From a virus (taxonomy: Duplodnaviria > Heunggongvirae > Uroviricota > Caudoviricetes): a stretch of 6,699 nucleotides of DNA. The DNA lies in the IMG/VR virus record IMGVR_UViG_2529292716_000007. One strand, 5' to 3'. The notes under the pieces are model-generated. The model was not told where the DNA came from. It saw nothing but the letters and a program-made list of their open reading frames with translations, and made no database searches. This document shows positions 1-6,699 of the stretch, in pieces (positions within the stretch are counted from its first letter, which is position 1; each line of letters opens with the position of its first letter). A program made the translations under genes and the position numbers.

Positions 1-457
1 TTAAATGTCTTTCCATTCCCTCCCTCGTCCGTCACGGTATTTATCCGTCATGCTGGATGAACGATGTCCAAGGAGCGCCTGAGTGAAATCACCGCCTTTT
101 TCTGCTGAGTGCAGGCGACCGGATAAACTTCGGATTTCATGAAATGGCGGTGGGTCACCTTCCCATTTCAATCCGGATGTGTCTCGGGCAATCCTGAACT
201 GTGCTGCGATTGTCCTGGCTGTCTTCCCTCCGAGTAACTTTTCGTTTTTACCGTTTATTTTTTTCAAGTTATCCAGTACATCGGCAAGTGTTAAATTCAA
301 TCTGGAAATCGTGGTGGGGAGAGAAATGCGAATTTTTGCCCCTGTTTTTTGTTGTTCCACGTATAGCCTGCCATCTCTTATATCCTCCCATCTCATAGCC
401 GCCAGATCTCCTTCGCGCTGTCCTGTTACCAGTGCAAGATCCATGCAAAGGCCGAAC
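1..457 (-). pseudogene. int: Lambda-family tyrosine integrase, C-terminal catalytic fragment; N-terminal part replaced by IS600
   Basis: Minus-strand ORF ends with the stop at 1-3 and a C-terminus ...HEIRSLSGRLH...LLGHRSSSMTDKYRDGRGREWKDI, closely resembling the lambda Int C-terminus (R/H boxes and catalytic Tyr in the LLGH...Y motif). The reading frame runs into the IS600 left end at 458, so the first codons of the track ORF (MSVKLRLPQ) are IS-derived and most of the N-terminus is absent. Confidence 0.8.
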
Positions 458-521
458 TGAGGTAGCCTGAGTTTAACGGACACTCCTTCCTGAAATAGAA
501 TGGCATCAGAAGGAGCTAATA

Positions 522-2070: not shown

Positions 2071-2354
2071 TCCTGCTCAAGATTGTAGATGAGTTTATTC
2101 TTCAGCAAAAGCAGAAAACCAGCCTTAAAACCAATCTCTTTCAAAACCCGTAATGATGTGACAAATTCGTCCTCACGCAAAATAAAACCGTCCGTCAGAA
2201 GTCCATTACAAAAATAAAATAACACAGCACCGCTCTTCCTTTGTTGAGATTGCAAACATCTAATGCGGCAATGGCTGACAATCGCTCCATTCTCAACGCG
2301 CACAGCATAGAGGCCATTTTCACTAAAAATTTCACGCAATTCTTCGATTTTCAT
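2067..2354 (-). CDS. Hypothetical protein, 95 aa
   Basis: ORF MKIEELREIFSENGLYAVRVENG... with an SD-like GGAAGGA about 10 nt upstream of the ATG at 2354. Its stop overlaps the next start (ATGA at 2067-2070), suggesting translational coupling. Function not recognised. Confidence 0.5.
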   Translation of the reverse strand: MKIEELREIFSENGLYAVRVENGAIVSHCRIRCLQSQQRKSGAVLFYFCNGLLTDGFILREDEFVTSLRVLKEIGFKAGFLLLLKNKLIYNLEQD

Positions 2355-2470
2355 CTTCAGAATCCTTCCAGATAAATAGCTCTCCCCTGTTCGGGGTCCA
2401 TCCCTCTTCTCCCTGCGCGCTACTTAAGTGAGTCGATTCTATCTGCGAAGGTGCGCGAATCAAATTCACC

Positions 2471-2528
2471 GGAAATAAACAACAAAAAACCCGCCGAAAC
2501 GCTGAGAGATCACAGCGATGGGCGGGTT
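2471..2528 (-). terminator. Rho-independent terminator at the 3' end of the hok transcript
   Basis: On the minus strand: GC-rich stem AACCCGCC...GGCGGGTT (plus 2488-2495 / 2521-2528) with a nested stem CGCTG/CAGCG, immediately followed by a U-tract (TTTTTTGTTGTTTATTT, plus 2471-2487). Confidence 0.6.
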
Positions 2529-2603
2529 AAGTGCGGGTGCGTTGAGGATGCCTGACACATCAGAGGTGGGCGGGGATGGGATCAGCTCCCCGCCCGGTCA
2601 CTC

Positions 2604-2759
2604 TTACTTCCTGGATTCGTAGTCTACGAAGACAGCGACCTCCGTCTGGCCGGTTCGGATTCGTACCTCACAGAGGTCTTTCCTCGTTACCAGTGCCGTC
2701 ACTATGACGGTTAAACAGATGACGATCAGGGCGATTAACATCGCCTTTTGCTGCTTCAT
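2604..2759 (-). CDS. hok: Hok/Gef-family type I toxin (small membrane-depolarising peptide)
   Basis: 51-aa product MKQQKAMLIALIVICLTVIVTALVTRKDLCEVRIRTGQTEVAVFVDYESRK: single transmembrane helix plus the conserved RKDLCEVRIRTGQTEVA Hok/Gef periplasmic motif, recalled as near-identical to chromosomal Hok proteins (HokD/RelF, HokC/Gef). AAGGAG SD lies 9 nt upstream of the ATG. Confidence 0.9.
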   Translation of the reverse strand: MKQQKAMLIALIVICLTVIVTALVTRKDLCEVRIRTGQTEVAVFVDYESRK

Positions 2760-2816
2760 AGCCTGCTTCTCCTTGCCTTTCGGCATGTAAGAGGCTAACC
2801 TACATGTGCAAAGCAT
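2604..2816 (-). CDS. mok: Mok-like leader ORF, in-frame N-terminal extension of hok (MLCTCRLASYMPKGKEKQA-Hok)
   Basis: 70-aa ORF from the track; the ML.TCR...K.KEK.AMKQ pattern resembles chromosomal MokC as I recall it. GAGG lies about 9 nt upstream. Assigning a Mok role is by analogy only. Confidence 0.5.
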   Translation of the reverse strand: MLCTCRLASYMPKGKEKQAMKQQKAMLIALIVICLTVIVTALVTRKDLCEVRIRTGQTEVAVFVDYESRK

Positions 2817-2935
2817 GAAATTGGCCTCAGATTAATGTTAAGCGTCTTGCCGGACGCGTAATGTTAACTGGGGCTTTTCTCTATCTGCCTTTTGGTGTTC
2901 ATGCCTGAAGCAGATAGCCTCAAGCACCCGCAGTC

Positions 2936-2965
2936 ATTCTACTTACCTCGCCAATATGAAATCAA
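2936..2965 (-). promoter_or_regulatory. Candidate sigma-70 promoter of the hok/mok mRNA
   Basis: Minus strand reads TTGATT (plus 2960-2965), an 18-nt spacer, then TAGAAT (plus 2936-2941). The predicted start near 2929 puts the 5' element TGCGGGTGCTTGAGG at the transcript start, consistent with the 5'/3' complementary pair noted in the findings. Confidence 0.45.
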
Positions 2966-2986
2966 TCAGAAAGGTGCCCCATAAAA

Positions 2987-3673
2987 TCACTCCTTCTCTT
3001 CTTTACCGTAGTGGAGTTGACCAATTTTGATAAGAGGGCGTCCCTGAGATTTGCGGTGTAGATTGGTATCGCGCAGAGAATACACACAGCCACAATATTC
3101 CTGCTGATAGAATTTTTCGCGCTTGCTGATTTCAATCATACGGGACGAGCCGCCCTGCTTGCGCCAGTTATAATCCCAGTACACCATGCCCGGATAATGC
3201 GCGACGGCTCGCCGCCCACAGTCGTTAACCTGCTGCATATTTTTCCAGCGTGAAATGCCCAGTGAACTGCTGATCACACTGAAACCATTTTCAGCGGCGT
3301 ACAGCGCTGTCCGCTCAAAACGCATGTCAAAACACATGGTGCAACGGATCCCTCGTTCGGGCTCCCATTCCATTCCTTTGGCTCGTTCAAACCAGTTGTC
3401 TGTGTCGTAATCAGCATCAATAAACGGCACGCCGTGTTGTTCAGCAAAGCGAATATTCTCATCCTTACGAATTAAATACTCTTTCTGAGGATGAATGTTC
3501 GGGTTGTAGAAAAAGATGGTGTAGTCGATTCCCGAGGCCTGAAGCGCCTCCATCACCTCACCGGAACATGGAGCACAGCAAGAGTGCAGTAGTAGTTTGT
3601 TTGCCCCGTTTGGGAGCTCCAATTTGGGCCGTTTGAAATCAGCAACTGTCATAAATATGTTTATTGGGGTCAT
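2987..3673 (-). CDS. DUF208/QueH-like (epoxyqueuosine reductase family) putative Fe-S protein, 228 aa
   Basis: ORF with an N-terminal [14 protein letters not shown] motif that I recall as the cluster-binding signature of the QueH/DUF208 family, plus further Cys pairs (CTMCFD, CGCVY). Assignment is from motif memory only. No convincing SD before either candidate start (3673 or 3652). Confidence 0.55.
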
Positions 3674-5418: not shown

Positions 5419-5772
5419 GGTCCGTTACCCCCTGAAGCCTGGCGGGATCGCACTGTCCGGCAACGAGACGGTGTTAACCTGTCGGAGCAACGTCTCAGGC
5501 CGAACACCTTTCGGCGCGAACAGGCCCTGGTATTCATTGGCGATGCTGTGTCGAATCACCTGCTCAGGTGTAAAACCCTGCTGACGGAATTTTTCCAGTT
5601 CCCGTATCGCCCCGTTAGCGCCCTGCTCCGTTCGAATCGGTTTTCGCAATGCCTGTCTGAACCGGACCCACTCATGCCAGAGTGTTTCCGGCAACCAATC
5701 GGGCAGCTCAATAGCCTCCGGCTCGAATTTTTTAGACGCTCGTTTTTGGCGAGGGGGAGATCAGTATTTAGA

Positions 5773-5817
5773 TCTTCCTCTTCCTCTTCCTCTTCCTCTT
5801 CCTCTTCCTCTTCCTCT
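5773..5817. repeat. Hexanucleotide microsatellite (TCTTCC)7.5, i.e. (GAAGAG)n on the coding strand, encoding a poly-Glu tract
   Basis: Seen directly: 45 bp of perfect TCTTCC repeats. In the minus frame that is open across it, it reads as 14 consecutive Glu; the other two minus frames read (RG)n and (KR)n. Confidence 0.95.
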
Positions 5818-5960
5818 GGTAACGCTTTTTGATCCGTTTGTGTAACGCTGGCAGCGTTACCTTTTCGTTTCAGTTCGCGTATTTTTGTTACTCGCTCGTT
5901 TGTAACCGCCCGTTTTTTTTAGAGCTTTTTCCGTTATGACGTTCAAAGTTAGGTAGAGAA
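5818..5960. repeat. Iteron-like repeat cluster (GTAAC core, including a perfect 9-bp palindrome) adjacent to a T-rich tract; candidate phage origin embedded in the initiator gene
   Basis: GTAACGC at 5819 and 5842; palindrome GTAACGCTG-G-CAGCGTTAC at 5842-5860; TTTTGTTAC at 5882-5890; TTTGTAACCGCC at 5899-5910; then T8 and an AT-rich stretch at 5911-5960. Lambdoid origins lie inside the initiator gene as iterons plus an AT-rich region. Confidence 0.35.
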
Positions 5961-6085
5961 AGCCCTCCGTCATTTTCGACCAGCCATCCAACCTGAATTA
6001 ACGCATCAGCAAAACCAGACATAAAAGTGATGCGATCTATTGCACTTTTTGTAACGCCGCGAGCGTTACAATCTGCATTACCGTC

Positions 6086-6699
6086 TGGATTTGCCCCTAT
6101 ATTTCCAGACATCTGTTATCACTTAACCCATTACAAGCCCGCTGCCGCAGATATTCCCGTGGCGAGCGATAACCCAGCGCACTATGCGGATGCCATTCGT
6201 TATAATGCTCGAACGCCTCTGCAAGGTTCTTTGCTGCCGTTAACCCGTCTGGTTTGGGCATGATACTGATGTAGTCACGCTTTATCGTTTTCACGAAGCT
6301 CTCTGCTATTCCGTTACTCTCCGGACTCCGCACCGCCGTGTTCTTCGGTTCAAGTCCCAACATCCGGGCGAACTGGCGTGTTTCATTAGCCCGGTAGCAT
6401 GAACCATTATCCGTCAGCCACTCCACTGGAGACGACGGAAGATCGTTGCCGAAGCGGCGTTCCACCGCTCCCAGCATGACGTCCTGTACTGTTTCACTGT
6501 TGAAGCCGCCGGTAGTCACCGCCCAGTGCAGTGCCTCACGATCACAGCAGTCCAGCGCGAACGTGACACGCAGTCTCTCTCCGTTATCACAGCAGAACTC
6601 GAACCCGTCAGAGCACCATCGCTGATTGCTTTCTTTCACGGCCACTCTGCCTGTATGTGCCCGTTTCGATGGCGGTACAGCAGGTTTTCGCTCAAGCAA
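6086..6699 (-). mobile_element. IS2 (IS3 family), right-end portion; element continues beyond the window
   Basis: Plus strand from 6086 reads TGGATTTGCCCCTATATTTCCAGACATCTGTTATCACTTAACCC, the reverse complement of the IS2 right terminus (...GATGTCTGGAAATATAGGGGCAAATCCA) as I recall it, followed by the InsD coding region. Confidence 0.9.
6097..6699 (-). CDS. insD: IS2 transposase InsD (OrfB), 5'-partial at the window edge
   Basis: ORF product ...[31 protein letters not shown]...[31 protein letters not shown] matches the IS2 InsD C-terminal region from memory; stop at 6097-6099. Confidence 0.9.

What the first reader, a model, noticed from the sequence alone, without database searches (positions are those of the whole stretch)
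2471..2965. Structurally complete hok/mok type I toxin-antitoxin transcript unit with long-range 5'/3' complementarity
Beyond the Hok ORF the locus keeps the features needed for regulated expression. There is a promoter-like TTGATT-N18-TAGAAT. The 5' element (plus 2918-2932, mRNA sense TGCGGGTGCTTGAGG) is almost perfectly complementary to a 3' element (plus 2532-2547), the fold-back arrangement typical of hok-family mRNAs. A stable hairpin (2568-2595) and an intrinsic terminator follow. The mRNA leader also resembles the R1 hok leader as I recall it. The Sok antisense RNA should lie on the plus strand opposite the mok start (roughly 2790-2880), but I could not place its promoter or terminator with confidence. 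Many chromosomal hok loci are inactivated, so an intact one in a decaying prophage is worth noting.
Basis: partly seen in the sequence, partly recalled or inferred. Interest (0 to 1): 0.45.

Follow-up and report, generated by a model that had tools for sequence, protein, structure and literature searches.

The report
Prophage hok/mok/sok toxin-antitoxin locus
This is an ordinary, already annotated copy of the well-known hok/sok "host-killing" toxin-antitoxin module (hokD/hokW type) in a decayed lambda-like prophage of a Shigella-like E. coli, with all its RNA control elements present but a rebuilt promoter.

Summary
The minus strand at 2965-2484 carries a complete hok-family unit. It has a promoter, a 5' tac element pairing with a 3' fbi element, mok (70 codons) overlapping hok (51 codons), a stable 3' hairpin and a terminator. 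A cis-antisense Sok RNA lies on the plus strand (about 2808-2878/2884) and I could place its promoter.

Rfam RF01794 scores 117 bits and Pfam HOK_GEF 79.9 bits. RefSeq already calls the identical sequence hokD. [quoted passage not shown]

There are three lineage-specific differences:
- The 3' hairpin is longer.
- The terminator loop carries a 23-nt insertion.

This allele recurs almost unchanged in Shigella flexneri, three E. coli chromosomes and 20 viral-database contigs. Intact hok loci in prophages are common, so the claim that this one is notable does not hold.

Verdict: real, correctly interpreted, already known, low interest. Whether the rebuilt promoter is active is untested.

The parts
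2936..2965 (-). hok/mok mRNA promoter-like site: -35 TTGATT (2965-2960), 18-bp spacer, -10 TAGAAT (2941-2936). It is a derived arrangement created by a 10-bp deletion between 2944 and 2941, relative to TTGGCG-N17-TAGAAT in the closest relatives.
   Evidence: Consensus scan. Alignments A1 and the 59-sequence comparison. Activity was not tested.
2918..2929 (-). tac (translational activator) element, GGGUGCUUGAGG, at the inferred mRNA 5' end. The +1 is inferred at G2929, 7 nt after the -10, where the Rfam model begins.
   Evidence: Rfam alignment starts at 2929. Pairs with fbi at probability >=0.97. Invariant in 46 relatives.
2881..2917 (-). 5' leader hairpin (2917-2908 paired with 2890-2881).
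   Evidence: MFE. Two pairs show compensatory changes among relatives: AU<->GC in 14 sequences and CG<->UA in 4 (helix 2).
2870..2874 (-). ucb / anti-Shine-Dalgarno box GCCCC. It pairs with the mok SD in the full-length fold and is partly complementary to tac (alternative tac/ucb stem).
   Evidence: Pair table. Inverted repeat I1, 2928-2910 / 2888-2870. Constrained fold.
2824..2828 (-). mok Shine-Dalgarno GAGGC, 8 nt upstream of the mok ATG.
   Evidence: Sequence. Invariant in A3.
2604..2816 (-). mok ORF, 70 codons plus stop (ATG 2816-2814). It is in frame with hok, that is, an N-terminally extended Hok like mokC and mokW.
   Evidence: ORF list. Same arrangement annotated for mokC in K-12 and mokW in 933W.
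2791..2795 (-). dcb box GCCUC. It pairs with the mok SD when tac/ucb is enforced in the truncated RNA, and it overlaps the spacer of the Sok promoter on the other strand.
   Evidence: Constrained fold. GTAAGAGGC is invariant from R1-type to this locus.
2604..2759 (-). hok toxin ORF, 51 codons plus TAA: MKQQKAMLIALIVICLTVIVTALVTRKDLCEVRIRTGQTEVAVFVDYESRK. SD AAGGAG at 2774-2769.
   Evidence: Pfam PF01848 HOK_GEF, 79.9 bits against a cut-off of 22. RefSeq WP_014532198.1 'toxin HokD' on identical DNA. One residue differs from HokW.
2616..2622 (-). CUACGAA around the Tyr47 codon (UAC 2621-2619). It contains the TadA motif TACG and is identical to the tRNA-Arg(ACG) anticodon loop. Candidate A-to-I (Tyr->Cys) editing site at A2620.
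   Evidence: Literature on hokC/D/E editing. Editing was not tested here.
2568..2595 (-). Stable hairpin after the stop codon (9-bp G+C stem). Inferred 3' end of the processed, active mRNA and a block to 3' exonucleases.
   Evidence: Folds. Relatives keep a hairpin here with different, mutually compensating stems. The role is inferred from R1.
2548..2560 (-). 3' element AUGUGUCAGGCAU. In the full-length fold it pairs with the mok start codon region (2816-2804), which is also the target of the Sok 5' tail.
   Evidence: Pair table. 90.6% of cells paired among relatives, helix 6. Prediction only.
2535..2547 (-). fbi (fold-back inhibitory) element CCUCAAcGCACCC with a bulged C at 2541. Complementarity extends to 2532 if transcription starts further upstream.
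   Evidence: Only the bulged base varies among relatives (C/T/A).
2484..2528 (-). Intrinsic terminator: 8-bp stem AACCCGCC/GGCGGGUU with a 23-nt insertion (2521-2499) forming an inner hairpin, then U6.
   Evidence: Folds. Relatives have the compact form AACCCGC-UUCG-GCGGGUU-U5-6. L007 shares the insertion.
2773..2801 (+). Sok promoter: -35 TTGCCT (2773-2778), 17-bp spacer, -10 TAACCT (2796-2801).
   Evidence: Aligned with the sokW, sokC and R1-type sok promoters. The identical -10 was mutated to inactivate sokW (primers YO-421/422). It falls below the consensus scanner's threshold.
2808..2884 (+). Sok antisense RNA, about 71-77 nt. It has a 5' single-stranded tail (2808 to about 2822) complementary to the mok start codon, a long hairpin (2823-2875) covering the mok SD, and a U-rich end (3' end 2878 by sokW homology or 2884 by sokC homology).
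   Evidence: Fold -30.2 kcal/mol, z -4.8. Ends transferred from the annotations of sokW and sokC. Expression not tested.

Best explanation
The locus is a hokD/hokW-subfamily hok/mok/sok type I toxin-antitoxin module. It sits in the early region of a defective lambdoid prophage, between a QueH gene and the nin-like genes.

Inferred mechanism, by homology to R1 hok/sok and Sp5 hokW/sokW:
1. A roughly 446-nt mRNA is made from the minus strand.
2. The full-length RNA is locked shut. tac (5' end) pairs with fbi (3' end), the mok SD pairs with the GCCCC anti-SD, and the mok start region pairs with a 3' element. It is therefore neither translated nor bound by Sok.
3. Slow 3' trimming back to the hairpin at 2595-2568 removes fbi and lets the 5' end refold.
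4. The refolded RNA is either bound by the short-lived plus-strand Sok RNA across the mok start and SD and destroyed, or, if Sok is depleted, translated. mok translation opens the sequestered hok start site.
5. The 51-aa Hok peptide then damages the inner membrane.

Shown here: the sequence anatomy, the predicted folds and the homology. Inferred: transcription, processing, toxicity and biological role. The likeliest roles are selfish retention of the prophage remnant or help with lysis or abortive infection. In this lineage the native promoter spacing was destroyed by a 10-bp deletion, and a substitute -35 of similar quality sits at 18 bp.
For: - Rfam RF01794: full-length match of 117 bits against a gathering score of 59.
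- Pfam HOK_GEF: 79.9 bits.
- Identical DNA is annotated hokD in RefSeq.
- About 91% DNA identity to 933W hokW/mokW/sokW. Hok differs from HokW by one residue.
- For hokW/sokW, toxicity, Sok antitoxin activity, the -10 element, and partial dependence of antitoxin activity on RNase III and Hfq were shown experimentally.
- tac/fbi pairs have probability >=0.97, and the fold z-score is -8.2.
- The truncated RNA refolds its 5' end and frees the mok AUG.
- tac, ucb, mok SD, dcb and fbi are all present.
- 94.2% of structure cells are paired in 46 relatives, against 33-41% when partners are slid. Ten pairs show double changes, against 6.0 +/- 1.2 in shuffles.
- tac/fbi covary between subfamilies: U-A here and in pHCM1, C-G in R1-type and Klebsiella loci.
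- The Sok promoter and hairpin align with sokW, sokC and R1-type sok.
- The allele is kept nearly unchanged in 22 independent contigs.
Against: - Nothing here shows expression.
- The ancestral -35 is displaced by the 10-bp deletion, and the substitute (TTGATT, 18-bp spacer) is only a consensus match.
- The Sok -10 TAACCT matches only 3 of 6 consensus positions.
- The MFE of the truncated RNA keeps the mok SD paired. The R1-like open form (tac/ucb plus SD/dcb) is 5.3 kcal/mol above the MFE.
- tac/fbi never vary within the subfamily, so there is no covariation at that level.
- According to literature quoted, intact chromosomal hok loci tested so far did not mediate post-segregational killing.
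- The near-identity of the 22 contigs may reflect recent common descent rather than selection.
Confidence: 0.85

Rival explanations
1. The locus is structurally intact but transcriptionally silenced or attenuated. The 10-bp deletion removed the working promoter geometry, so little or no hok mRNA is made. Sok may still be transcribed, and the module is a harmless relic carried along in a decaying prophage.
For: - The deletion is unique to this lineage among 59 unique relatives. All others keep TTGGCG/TTGCGG at 16-17 bp.
- The prophage is clearly decaying: an IS3-family insertion truncates a DUF1367 gene, there is an integrase fragment and a second IS, and the sister genome has pseudogenes.
- Two contigs of the same lineage carry a further 14-nt duplication right after tac.
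- K-12 hok loci are reported inactivated.
Against: - The substitute TTGATT matches the -35 consensus as well as the ancestral hexamer does (4 of 6), at an allowed 18-bp spacing, with a 5-of-6 -10.
- The ORFs, all RNA elements and the Sok promoter are unmutated.
- 11 of the 22 contigs found by exact search are identical over 555 nt and 9 others differ by 1-2 substitutions, one of which (C2592U) keeps a G-U pair.
- Read-through from the upstream QueH gene, which stops at 2987, could also supply transcripts.
Confidence: 0.13
2. The 5'/3' complementarity and hairpins are chance features around a small ORF and have no regulatory meaning.
For: - End-to-end pairing is common in random RNAs: 29 of 200 shuffles paired at least 8 of the first 12 nt with the 3' end.
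- A duplex-energy test against the shuffled 3' UTR was weak (9/300).
Against: - Full-length Rfam match.
- Both elements are invariant in 46 relatives, while only the bulged base varies.
- The same arrangement, with compensatory differences, is found in R1-type, Klebsiella and pHCM1 loci.
- The mechanism is established experimentally for R1.
Confidence: 0.01

Closest known systems
hokW/mokW/sokW of Stx2 phages 933W and Sakai Sp5 (AF125520; Takada et al. 2021, PMC8621323)
   Same: - About 91% DNA identity over the unit.
- Hok differs by one residue (R50 here, E50 in HokW).
- Same in-frame 70-codon mok.
- Same Sok promoter hexamers (TTGCCT / TAACCT) and the same 18-nt-longer Sok hairpin relative to sokC.
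- Same tac and fbi sequences.
- Also carried by a lambdoid phage.
   Different: - 933W keeps the ancestral promoter spacing. It lacks the compact terminator, because its sequence diverges just after fbi.
- It has a shorter 3' hairpin.
- It differs in the Sok 5'-tail/mok start patch (GCAAAGCATGAAATTGG here, GTTCAGCATGGATTGAG there).
- It sits in a different neighbourhood, not next to QueH.
- Function is shown for hokW/sokW and not for this allele.
hokD (relF) type loci next to QueH in E. coli lambdoid prophages (for example strain O18, NZ_CP007275)
   Same: Same position directly downstream of the QueH gene, and the same upstream sequence up to the promoter. About 91% identity. RefSeq names both hokD.
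   Different: - Those loci have TTGGCG-N17-TAGAAT, the compact terminator and the C-terminus FTAYEPEE (UUACGAA at the Tyr codon).
- The window has the 10-bp deletion, the 23-nt terminator-loop insertion, a longer 3' hairpin and FVDYESRK (CUACGAA).
- K-12's own hokD is reported to lack parts of the system. I did not check that here.
hokC (gef)/mokC/sokC of E. coli K-12
   Same: Same leader architecture (Rfam 118 bits), an in-frame mok, and a Sok start at the homologous G.
   Different: In K-12, IS186 lies about 20 bp past the hokC stop, and no tac-complementary (fbi) sequence is seen in the DNA after the stop. sokC lacks the 18-nt hairpin extension and has a different -10.
hok/mok/sok (parB) of plasmid R1, the paradigm
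   Same: Same set of elements: tac, ucb, mok SD, dcb, 3' hairpin, fbi, terminator and cis-antisense Sok with a homologous promoter. The leader matches the same Rfam model (89-93 bits for R1-type loci).
   Different: - The toxins are only 42-44% identical.
- In R1-type loci annotated here, mok overlaps hok in another frame. This is seen for a Klebsiella R1-type locus and for R1 itself from my own knowledge.
- tac is GGCGCUUGAGG, with fbi changed to match.
- It is carried on a plasmid and has proven post-segregational killing.

Membership tests
hok/sok (Hok/Gef) type I toxin-antitoxin family | Small hydrophobic Hok/Gef toxin ORF of about 50 aa | tested here: met
   51-aa ORF 2759-2604. Pfam PF01848 scores 79.9 bits against a cut-off of 22. 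NCBIfam hits fall below their cut-offs (55 against 73), but RefSeq names the identical protein HokD.
hok/sok (Hok/Gef) type I toxin-antitoxin family | Overlapping upstream mok reading frame with its own SD, through which hok is translated | tested here: met
   The 70-codon ORF from ATG 2816 has GAGG 8 nt upstream. The same arrangement is annotated as mokC and mokW. The hok SD and AUG are base-paired in both predicted forms. Coupling itself was not tested.
hok/sok (Hok/Gef) type I toxin-antitoxin family | Conserved structured mRNA leader (Rfam RF01794) | tested here: met
   117 bits against a gathering score of 59, model positions 1-157 of 157, at 2929-2754 on the minus strand. The model matches the hok-mRNA strand. 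In the K-12 control the hit is opposite to the annotated sokC.
hok/sok (Hok/Gef) type I toxin-antitoxin family | Long-range tac/fbi pairing of the mRNA 5' and 3' ends | tested here: met
   12 pairs, 2929-2918 with 2535-2547, probability 0.97-1.0. Invariant in 46 relatives. Compensatory U-A/C-G difference against R1-type and Klebsiella loci.
hok/sok (Hok/Gef) type I toxin-antitoxin family | mok SD sequestered by an upstream anti-SD (ucb) in the full-length mRNA | tested here: met
   GAGGC 2828-2824 pairs with GCCCC 2874-2870 in the MFE. This is a prediction only.
hok/sok (Hok/Gef) type I toxin-antitoxin family | After 3' processing, refolding into tac/ucb and mok-SD/dcb stems that open the mRNA | tested here: inconclusive
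   The truncated RNA refolds its 5' end, but into the local tac hairpin, and the SD stays paired. tac/ucb complementarity exists (I1). Enforcing it yields the SD/dcb stem but costs 5.3 kcal/mol.
hok/sok (Hok/Gef) type I toxin-antitoxin family | Stable hairpin at the 3' end of the processed mRNA, upstream of fbi | tested here: met
   2595-2568, -20.9 kcal/mol. Relatives keep a hairpin with different compensating stems. Processing itself is not testable here.
hok/sok (Hok/Gef) type I toxin-antitoxin family | Cis-encoded antisense Sok RNA with its own promoter and terminator, overlapping the mok start and SD | tested here: met
   At the sequence level only. The promoter TTGCCT-N17-TAACCT and the start G2808 align with sokW, sokC and R1-type sok. 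The -10 is identical to the one mutated in sokW. Hairpin plus U-tract, -30.2 kcal/mol, z -4.8.
hok/sok (Hok/Gef) type I toxin-antitoxin family | Hok is toxic, and Sok neutralises it through RNase III-dependent decay | not testable with these tools
   Toxicity and Sok neutralisation were shown for HokW, which differs by one residue. Antitoxin activity there partly required RNase III and Hfq in growth assays, and decay was not measured. Not shown for this allele.
TadA-edited hok mRNAs (Tyr->Cys recoding) | Tyr encoded by TAC within a TACG motif at the position aligned with Cys46 of HokB, in a loop | tested here: met
   TACG at 2621-2618, invariant in A1 and A3. CUACGAA is identical to the tRNA-Arg(ACG) anticodon loop. 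It forms a 7-nt loop in the local fold. Motif definition from PMC5630033.
TadA-edited hok mRNAs (Tyr->Cys recoding) | Measured A-to-I conversion in RNA | not testable with these tools
   Needs RNA-seq of a carrier strain.

The most novel reading that the evidence does not exclude
The Shigella/E. coli lineage allele is a retuned hok/sok variant rather than a plain copy. It has a promoter rebuilt by a one-helical-turn deletion, a stronger 3' processing-stop hairpin, a two-tier terminator, and a Tyr47 site whose heptaloop matches tRNA-Arg(ACG) exactly. Together these would change how fast the mRNA is activated and how strongly the toxin is edited to its two-cysteine form. In parallel, the variable Sok-tail/mok-start patch would insulate co-resident hok/sok copies from cross-talk.
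Probability: 0.1. Interest if true: 0.3.

Novelty: already known. Interest (0 to 1): 0.1.

Why it matters
It matters little beyond correct annotation. The hok/sok family is a textbook system, this subfamily has been tested experimentally (hokW/sokW), and the identical sequence is already named hokD in RefSeq.

Three small points may be useful:
- Genome annotation of this locus omits mok, Sok and the RNA elements, which are placed here to the base.
- The Rfam 'sok' model reports the hok-mRNA strand, so its hits should not be read as the antitoxin's strand.
- The 10-bp promoter deletion allele, widespread in Shigella-like genomes, is a natural test of whether such prophage hok loci are still transcribed.

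Tried and rejected
- The consensus terminator scan found nothing in 2300-3150. The terminator is real but its 23-nt loop insertion exceeds the scanner's loop limit, so I judged it by folding and by comparison with relatives.
- The consensus promoter scan does not report the Sok promoter because TAACCT matches only 3 of 6 positions. I placed it by homology instead.
- A duplex-energy test of the 5' 14-mer against the shuffled 3' UTR had little power: 9/300 for the window, and 62/300 and 190/300 for the R1-type and pHCM1 loci. I dropped it as a significance test and used that output only for positions and covariation.
- Covariation of tac/fbi within the subfamily is impossible because all 12 pairs are invariant.
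- Helix 15 (the 3' hairpin) scores poorly only because the window's longer hairpin is out of register with the shorter ones in the alignment.
- A permissive Rfam search of 2300-3100 found nothing else credible.
- One script failed on a file name. One timed out because of my dinucleotide shuffler, so I used mononucleotide shuffles instead.
- I considered the second TTGATT/TAGAAT pair at 2463-2436 as a remnant of a duplicated hok promoter. No further similarity supports that.
- I did not use the large protein searches or structure prediction. They could not change the verdict.
Full report
**What is in the sequence**

On the minus strand the window has the following elements, in order:
- a promoter-like TTGATT (2965-2960), 18-bp spacer, TAGAAT (2941-2936);
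- a leader beginning GGGTGCTTGAGG at 2929;
- a 70-codon ORF from ATG 2816;
- an in-frame 51-codon ORF from ATG 2759, preceded by AAGGAG, both ending at TAA 2606-2604;
- a perfect 9-bp G+C hairpin at 2595-2568;
- the sequence CCTCAACGCACCC at 2547-2535;
- a hairpin followed by TTTTTT at 2528-2484.

**Identity**

- Rfam finds one family in the window: RF01794 'sok', full model length, 117 bits against a gathering score of 59, at 2929-2754 on the minus strand. A permissive search adds nothing credible.
- The ORF matches Pfam HOK_GEF at 79.9 bits.
- The 601 bases around the locus are 100% identical to two RefSeq E. coli chromosomes (FDAARGOS_943 and 944). There the ORF is annotated 'type I toxin-antitoxin system toxin HokD' next to 'epoxyqueuosine reductase QueH'. 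They are about 91% identical to hokD-plus-QueH loci in thousands of E. coli genomes.
- In the phage collection the closest annotated relative is hokW/mokW/sokW of Stx2 phage 933W, at 91% identity.
- HokW differs from the window's Hok by one residue.
- For hokW/sokW of the equivalent Sakai prophage Sp5, Takada et al. showed the following (PMC8621323):
  - HokW is toxic.
  - sokW (71 nt) neutralises it from its own promoter.
  - Changing the -10 abolishes protection.
  - RNase III and Hfq contribute.
  - The module speeds lysis after prophage induction.

**A caution on the Rfam hit**

RF01794 is called 'sok', but in every locus I scanned it matches the strand of the hok mRNA. In K-12 it lies on the hokC/mokC strand, opposite to the annotated sokC. 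The hit therefore certifies the leader. It does not give the strand of the antitoxin.

**The 5'/3' pairing**

- Folding the transcript 2929->2481 pairs nt 1-12 (2929-2918) with 2547-2535 around one bulged C. Pair probabilities are 0.97-1.0. The MFE is -191.5 kcal/mol against -140.5 +/- 6.2 for shuffles, z = -8.2.
- As a chance test, none of 200 mononucleotide shuffles paired all 12 nt with the last 110 nt, but 29 paired at least 8. The fold alone is only moderately convincing.
- The comparative evidence is stronger. In 46 distinct relatives (92% mean identity) all 12 pairs are invariant. The only variable base in fbi is the bulged one (C, T or A).
- Between subfamilies the two elements change together:
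  - here and in pHCM1, GGGUGC/GGUGC faces GCACCC/GCACC;
  - in the R1-type and Klebsiella plasmid loci, GGCGC faces GCGCC.
- In every case fbi sits between the post-stop hairpin and the terminator.
- Over the whole predicted structure, 94.2% of cells are paired in the relatives, against 33-41% when partners are slid. Ten pairs have changes on both sides, against 6.0 +/- 1.2 in shuffles. The structure was derived from one of the sequences, so the comparison with slid partners flatters it somewhat.

**Other regulatory elements**

These are named as in the R1 literature.
- In the full-length fold, the mok SD (GAGGC 2828-2824) pairs with an upstream GCCCC (2874-2870), which is the ucb or anti-SD.
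- The mok AUG region (2816-2804) pairs with a 3' element (2560-2548) next to fbi.
- The hok SD and AUG pair with the 3' part of the coding region.
- Removing the 3' end back to the hairpin (2929->2566) makes the 5' end refold and frees the mok AUG. However, the MFE uses the local tac hairpin, which is the equivalent of R1's metastable hairpin, and leaves the SD paired.
- The R1-like open form is possible. tac is complementary to the ucb region (inverted repeat 2928-2910 / 2888-2870). Enforcing that stem makes the mok SD pair with GCCUC 2795-2791, the dcb. This form is 5.3 kcal/mol above the MFE. I score this feature as inconclusive.

**Sok**

- On the plus strand, TTGCCT (2773-2778), a 17-bp spacer and TAACCT (2796-2801) align column for column with the promoters of sokW, sokC and R1-type sok. 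The spacer core GTAAGAGGC is invariant.
- The annotated 5' ends of sokW and sokC both map to G2808. Their 3' ends map to 2878 and 2884.
- The RNA folds into a free 5' tail of about 15 nt, a long hairpin and a U-rich end (-30.2 kcal/mol, z -4.8).
- The tail covers the mok start codon and the hairpin covers the mok SD.
- The -10 TAACCT is exactly the element that Takada et al. changed to GAGCCG to inactivate sokW. I deduced this from their primers.

**What is particular to this copy**

Against 58 other unique relatives, three differences stand out.
1. *Promoter.* All the others have a -35 (TTGGCG in the QueH-linked lineage, TTGCGG/TTTGCG in 933W-like phages) 16-17 bp from TAGAAT. Here 10 bp (TAACGGTAGT in the nearest relative, flanked by TAA repeats) are missing. 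The old -35 therefore lies 7 bp from the -10, and an upstream TTGATT falls at 18 bp. The substitute is as good a consensus match as the original, but its activity is unknown.
2. *3' hairpin.* It is 7 nt longer, with a perfect 9-bp stem.
3. *Terminator.* Its loop carries a 23-nt insertion that forms an inner hairpin. The whole is more stable than the compact form (-22.8 against -11.8 kcal/mol) and keeps its U-tract.

Differences 2 and 3 also occur in one phage contig with an undeleted promoter (L007).

The exact deletion junction is found in the GTDB representative of Shigella flexneri, in E. coli ECMA0423 and in 20 IMG/VR contigs, and in the two identical FDAARGOS chromosomes. One of the IMG/VR contigs (L097) is identical to the window apart from 3 nt in a hexanucleotide repeat. 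Over the 555-nt unit, the 22 contigs break down as follows:
- 11 are identical;
- 9 differ by one or two substitutions;
- 2 carry a 14-nt duplication just after tac.

**Context**

The locus lies in a defective lambdoid prophage.
- Upstream (in the hok sense) are DnaC-like (ydaV), DUF977 and QueH genes.
- Downstream are a 95-aa ORF and a DUF1367 gene cut by an IS3-family element.
- An integrase fragment lies at the left end and another IS3-family transposase at the right.

**Is it notable?**

No.
- A 2026 survey counted 44,248 Hok homologs. It found them enriched in prophages (23% observed against 5% expected) and found 42 of 45 tested homologs toxic.
- The megablast search here found related sequence in 4,713 of 5,426 complete E. 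coli genomes, with a median of two places per genome.
- The statement that chromosomal hok loci are inactivated applies to K-12. Intact chromosomal loci exist elsewhere, although those tested did not mediate post-segregational killing.

**Verdict**

The object is already known and already annotated. The open point is whether the rebuilt promoter still drives hok mRNA. I give 0.85 to 'canonical hok/mok/sok module, expression-competent' and 0.13 to 'structurally intact but silenced relic'.

Noticed in passing
window 2616-2622 (minus strand): The Tyr47 codon of hok lies in CUACGAA. This is identical to the anticodon loop of E. coli tRNA-Arg(ACG), the natural TadA substrate, and it sits in a 7-nt loop in a local fold. 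K-12-type hokD relatives have UUACGAA instead. This makes it a candidate A-to-I (Tyr->Cys) editing site, as reported for hokC/D/E.
   Followed up: partly
window 2804-2824; alignment A3 columns about 107-130: In an alignment that is otherwise 92% identical, the variable patch coincides with the first mok codons, which are the target of the Sok 5' single-stranded tail. Several quite different versions exist among phage copies. This may limit cross-talk between co-resident hok/sok copies (median two places per E. coli genome).
   Followed up: no
window 2436-2463 (minus strand): A second promoter-like site with the same hexamers (TTGATT-N16-TAGAAT) lies directly after the hok terminator, upstream of an unannotated-function 95-aa ORF (2354-2067). 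The TAGAAT and the sequence downstream of it are conserved in several relatives.
   Followed up: no
window 2987-3673 (minus strand): A phage-borne epoxyqueuosine reductase QueH gene (Pfam 220 bits) ends 22 bp before the hok -35. Read-through from it could add to hok transcription. The QueH-hokD pairing is very common in E. coli prophages.
   Followed up: no
L101 and L112 (IMG/VR contigs), at the position equivalent to window 2921: Two contigs of the same deletion lineage carry a 14-nt tandem duplication (AGGCTATCTGCTTC) immediately after tac. It would alter the 5' hairpins and could be a natural inactivating or retuning mutation.
   Followed up: no
window 5773-5817: There is a perfect (TCTTCC)x7.5 hexanucleotide repeat. 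The otherwise identical contig L097 differs from the window by 3 nt here. The minus-strand ORFs on either side (5425-5694 and 5888-6112) correspond to a single 783-bp gene in the sister genome FDAARGOS_943.
   Followed up: no
window 1-483, 522-1721 and 6087-6699: An integrase C-terminal fragment lies at 1-483. An IS3-family element (orfA 522-824, orfB 860-1678) truncates a DUF1367 gene to 131 aa. A second IS3-family transposase gene lies at the right edge. The identity breakpoints against relatives are at 1722 and 6086.
   Followed up: partly
L003 (K-12 hokC locus) and all scanned loci: Rfam RF01794 'sok antitoxin' matches the hok-mRNA strand, not the strand of the annotated Sok RNA. Automated annotation from this model would put the antitoxin on the wrong strand.
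   Followed up: yes
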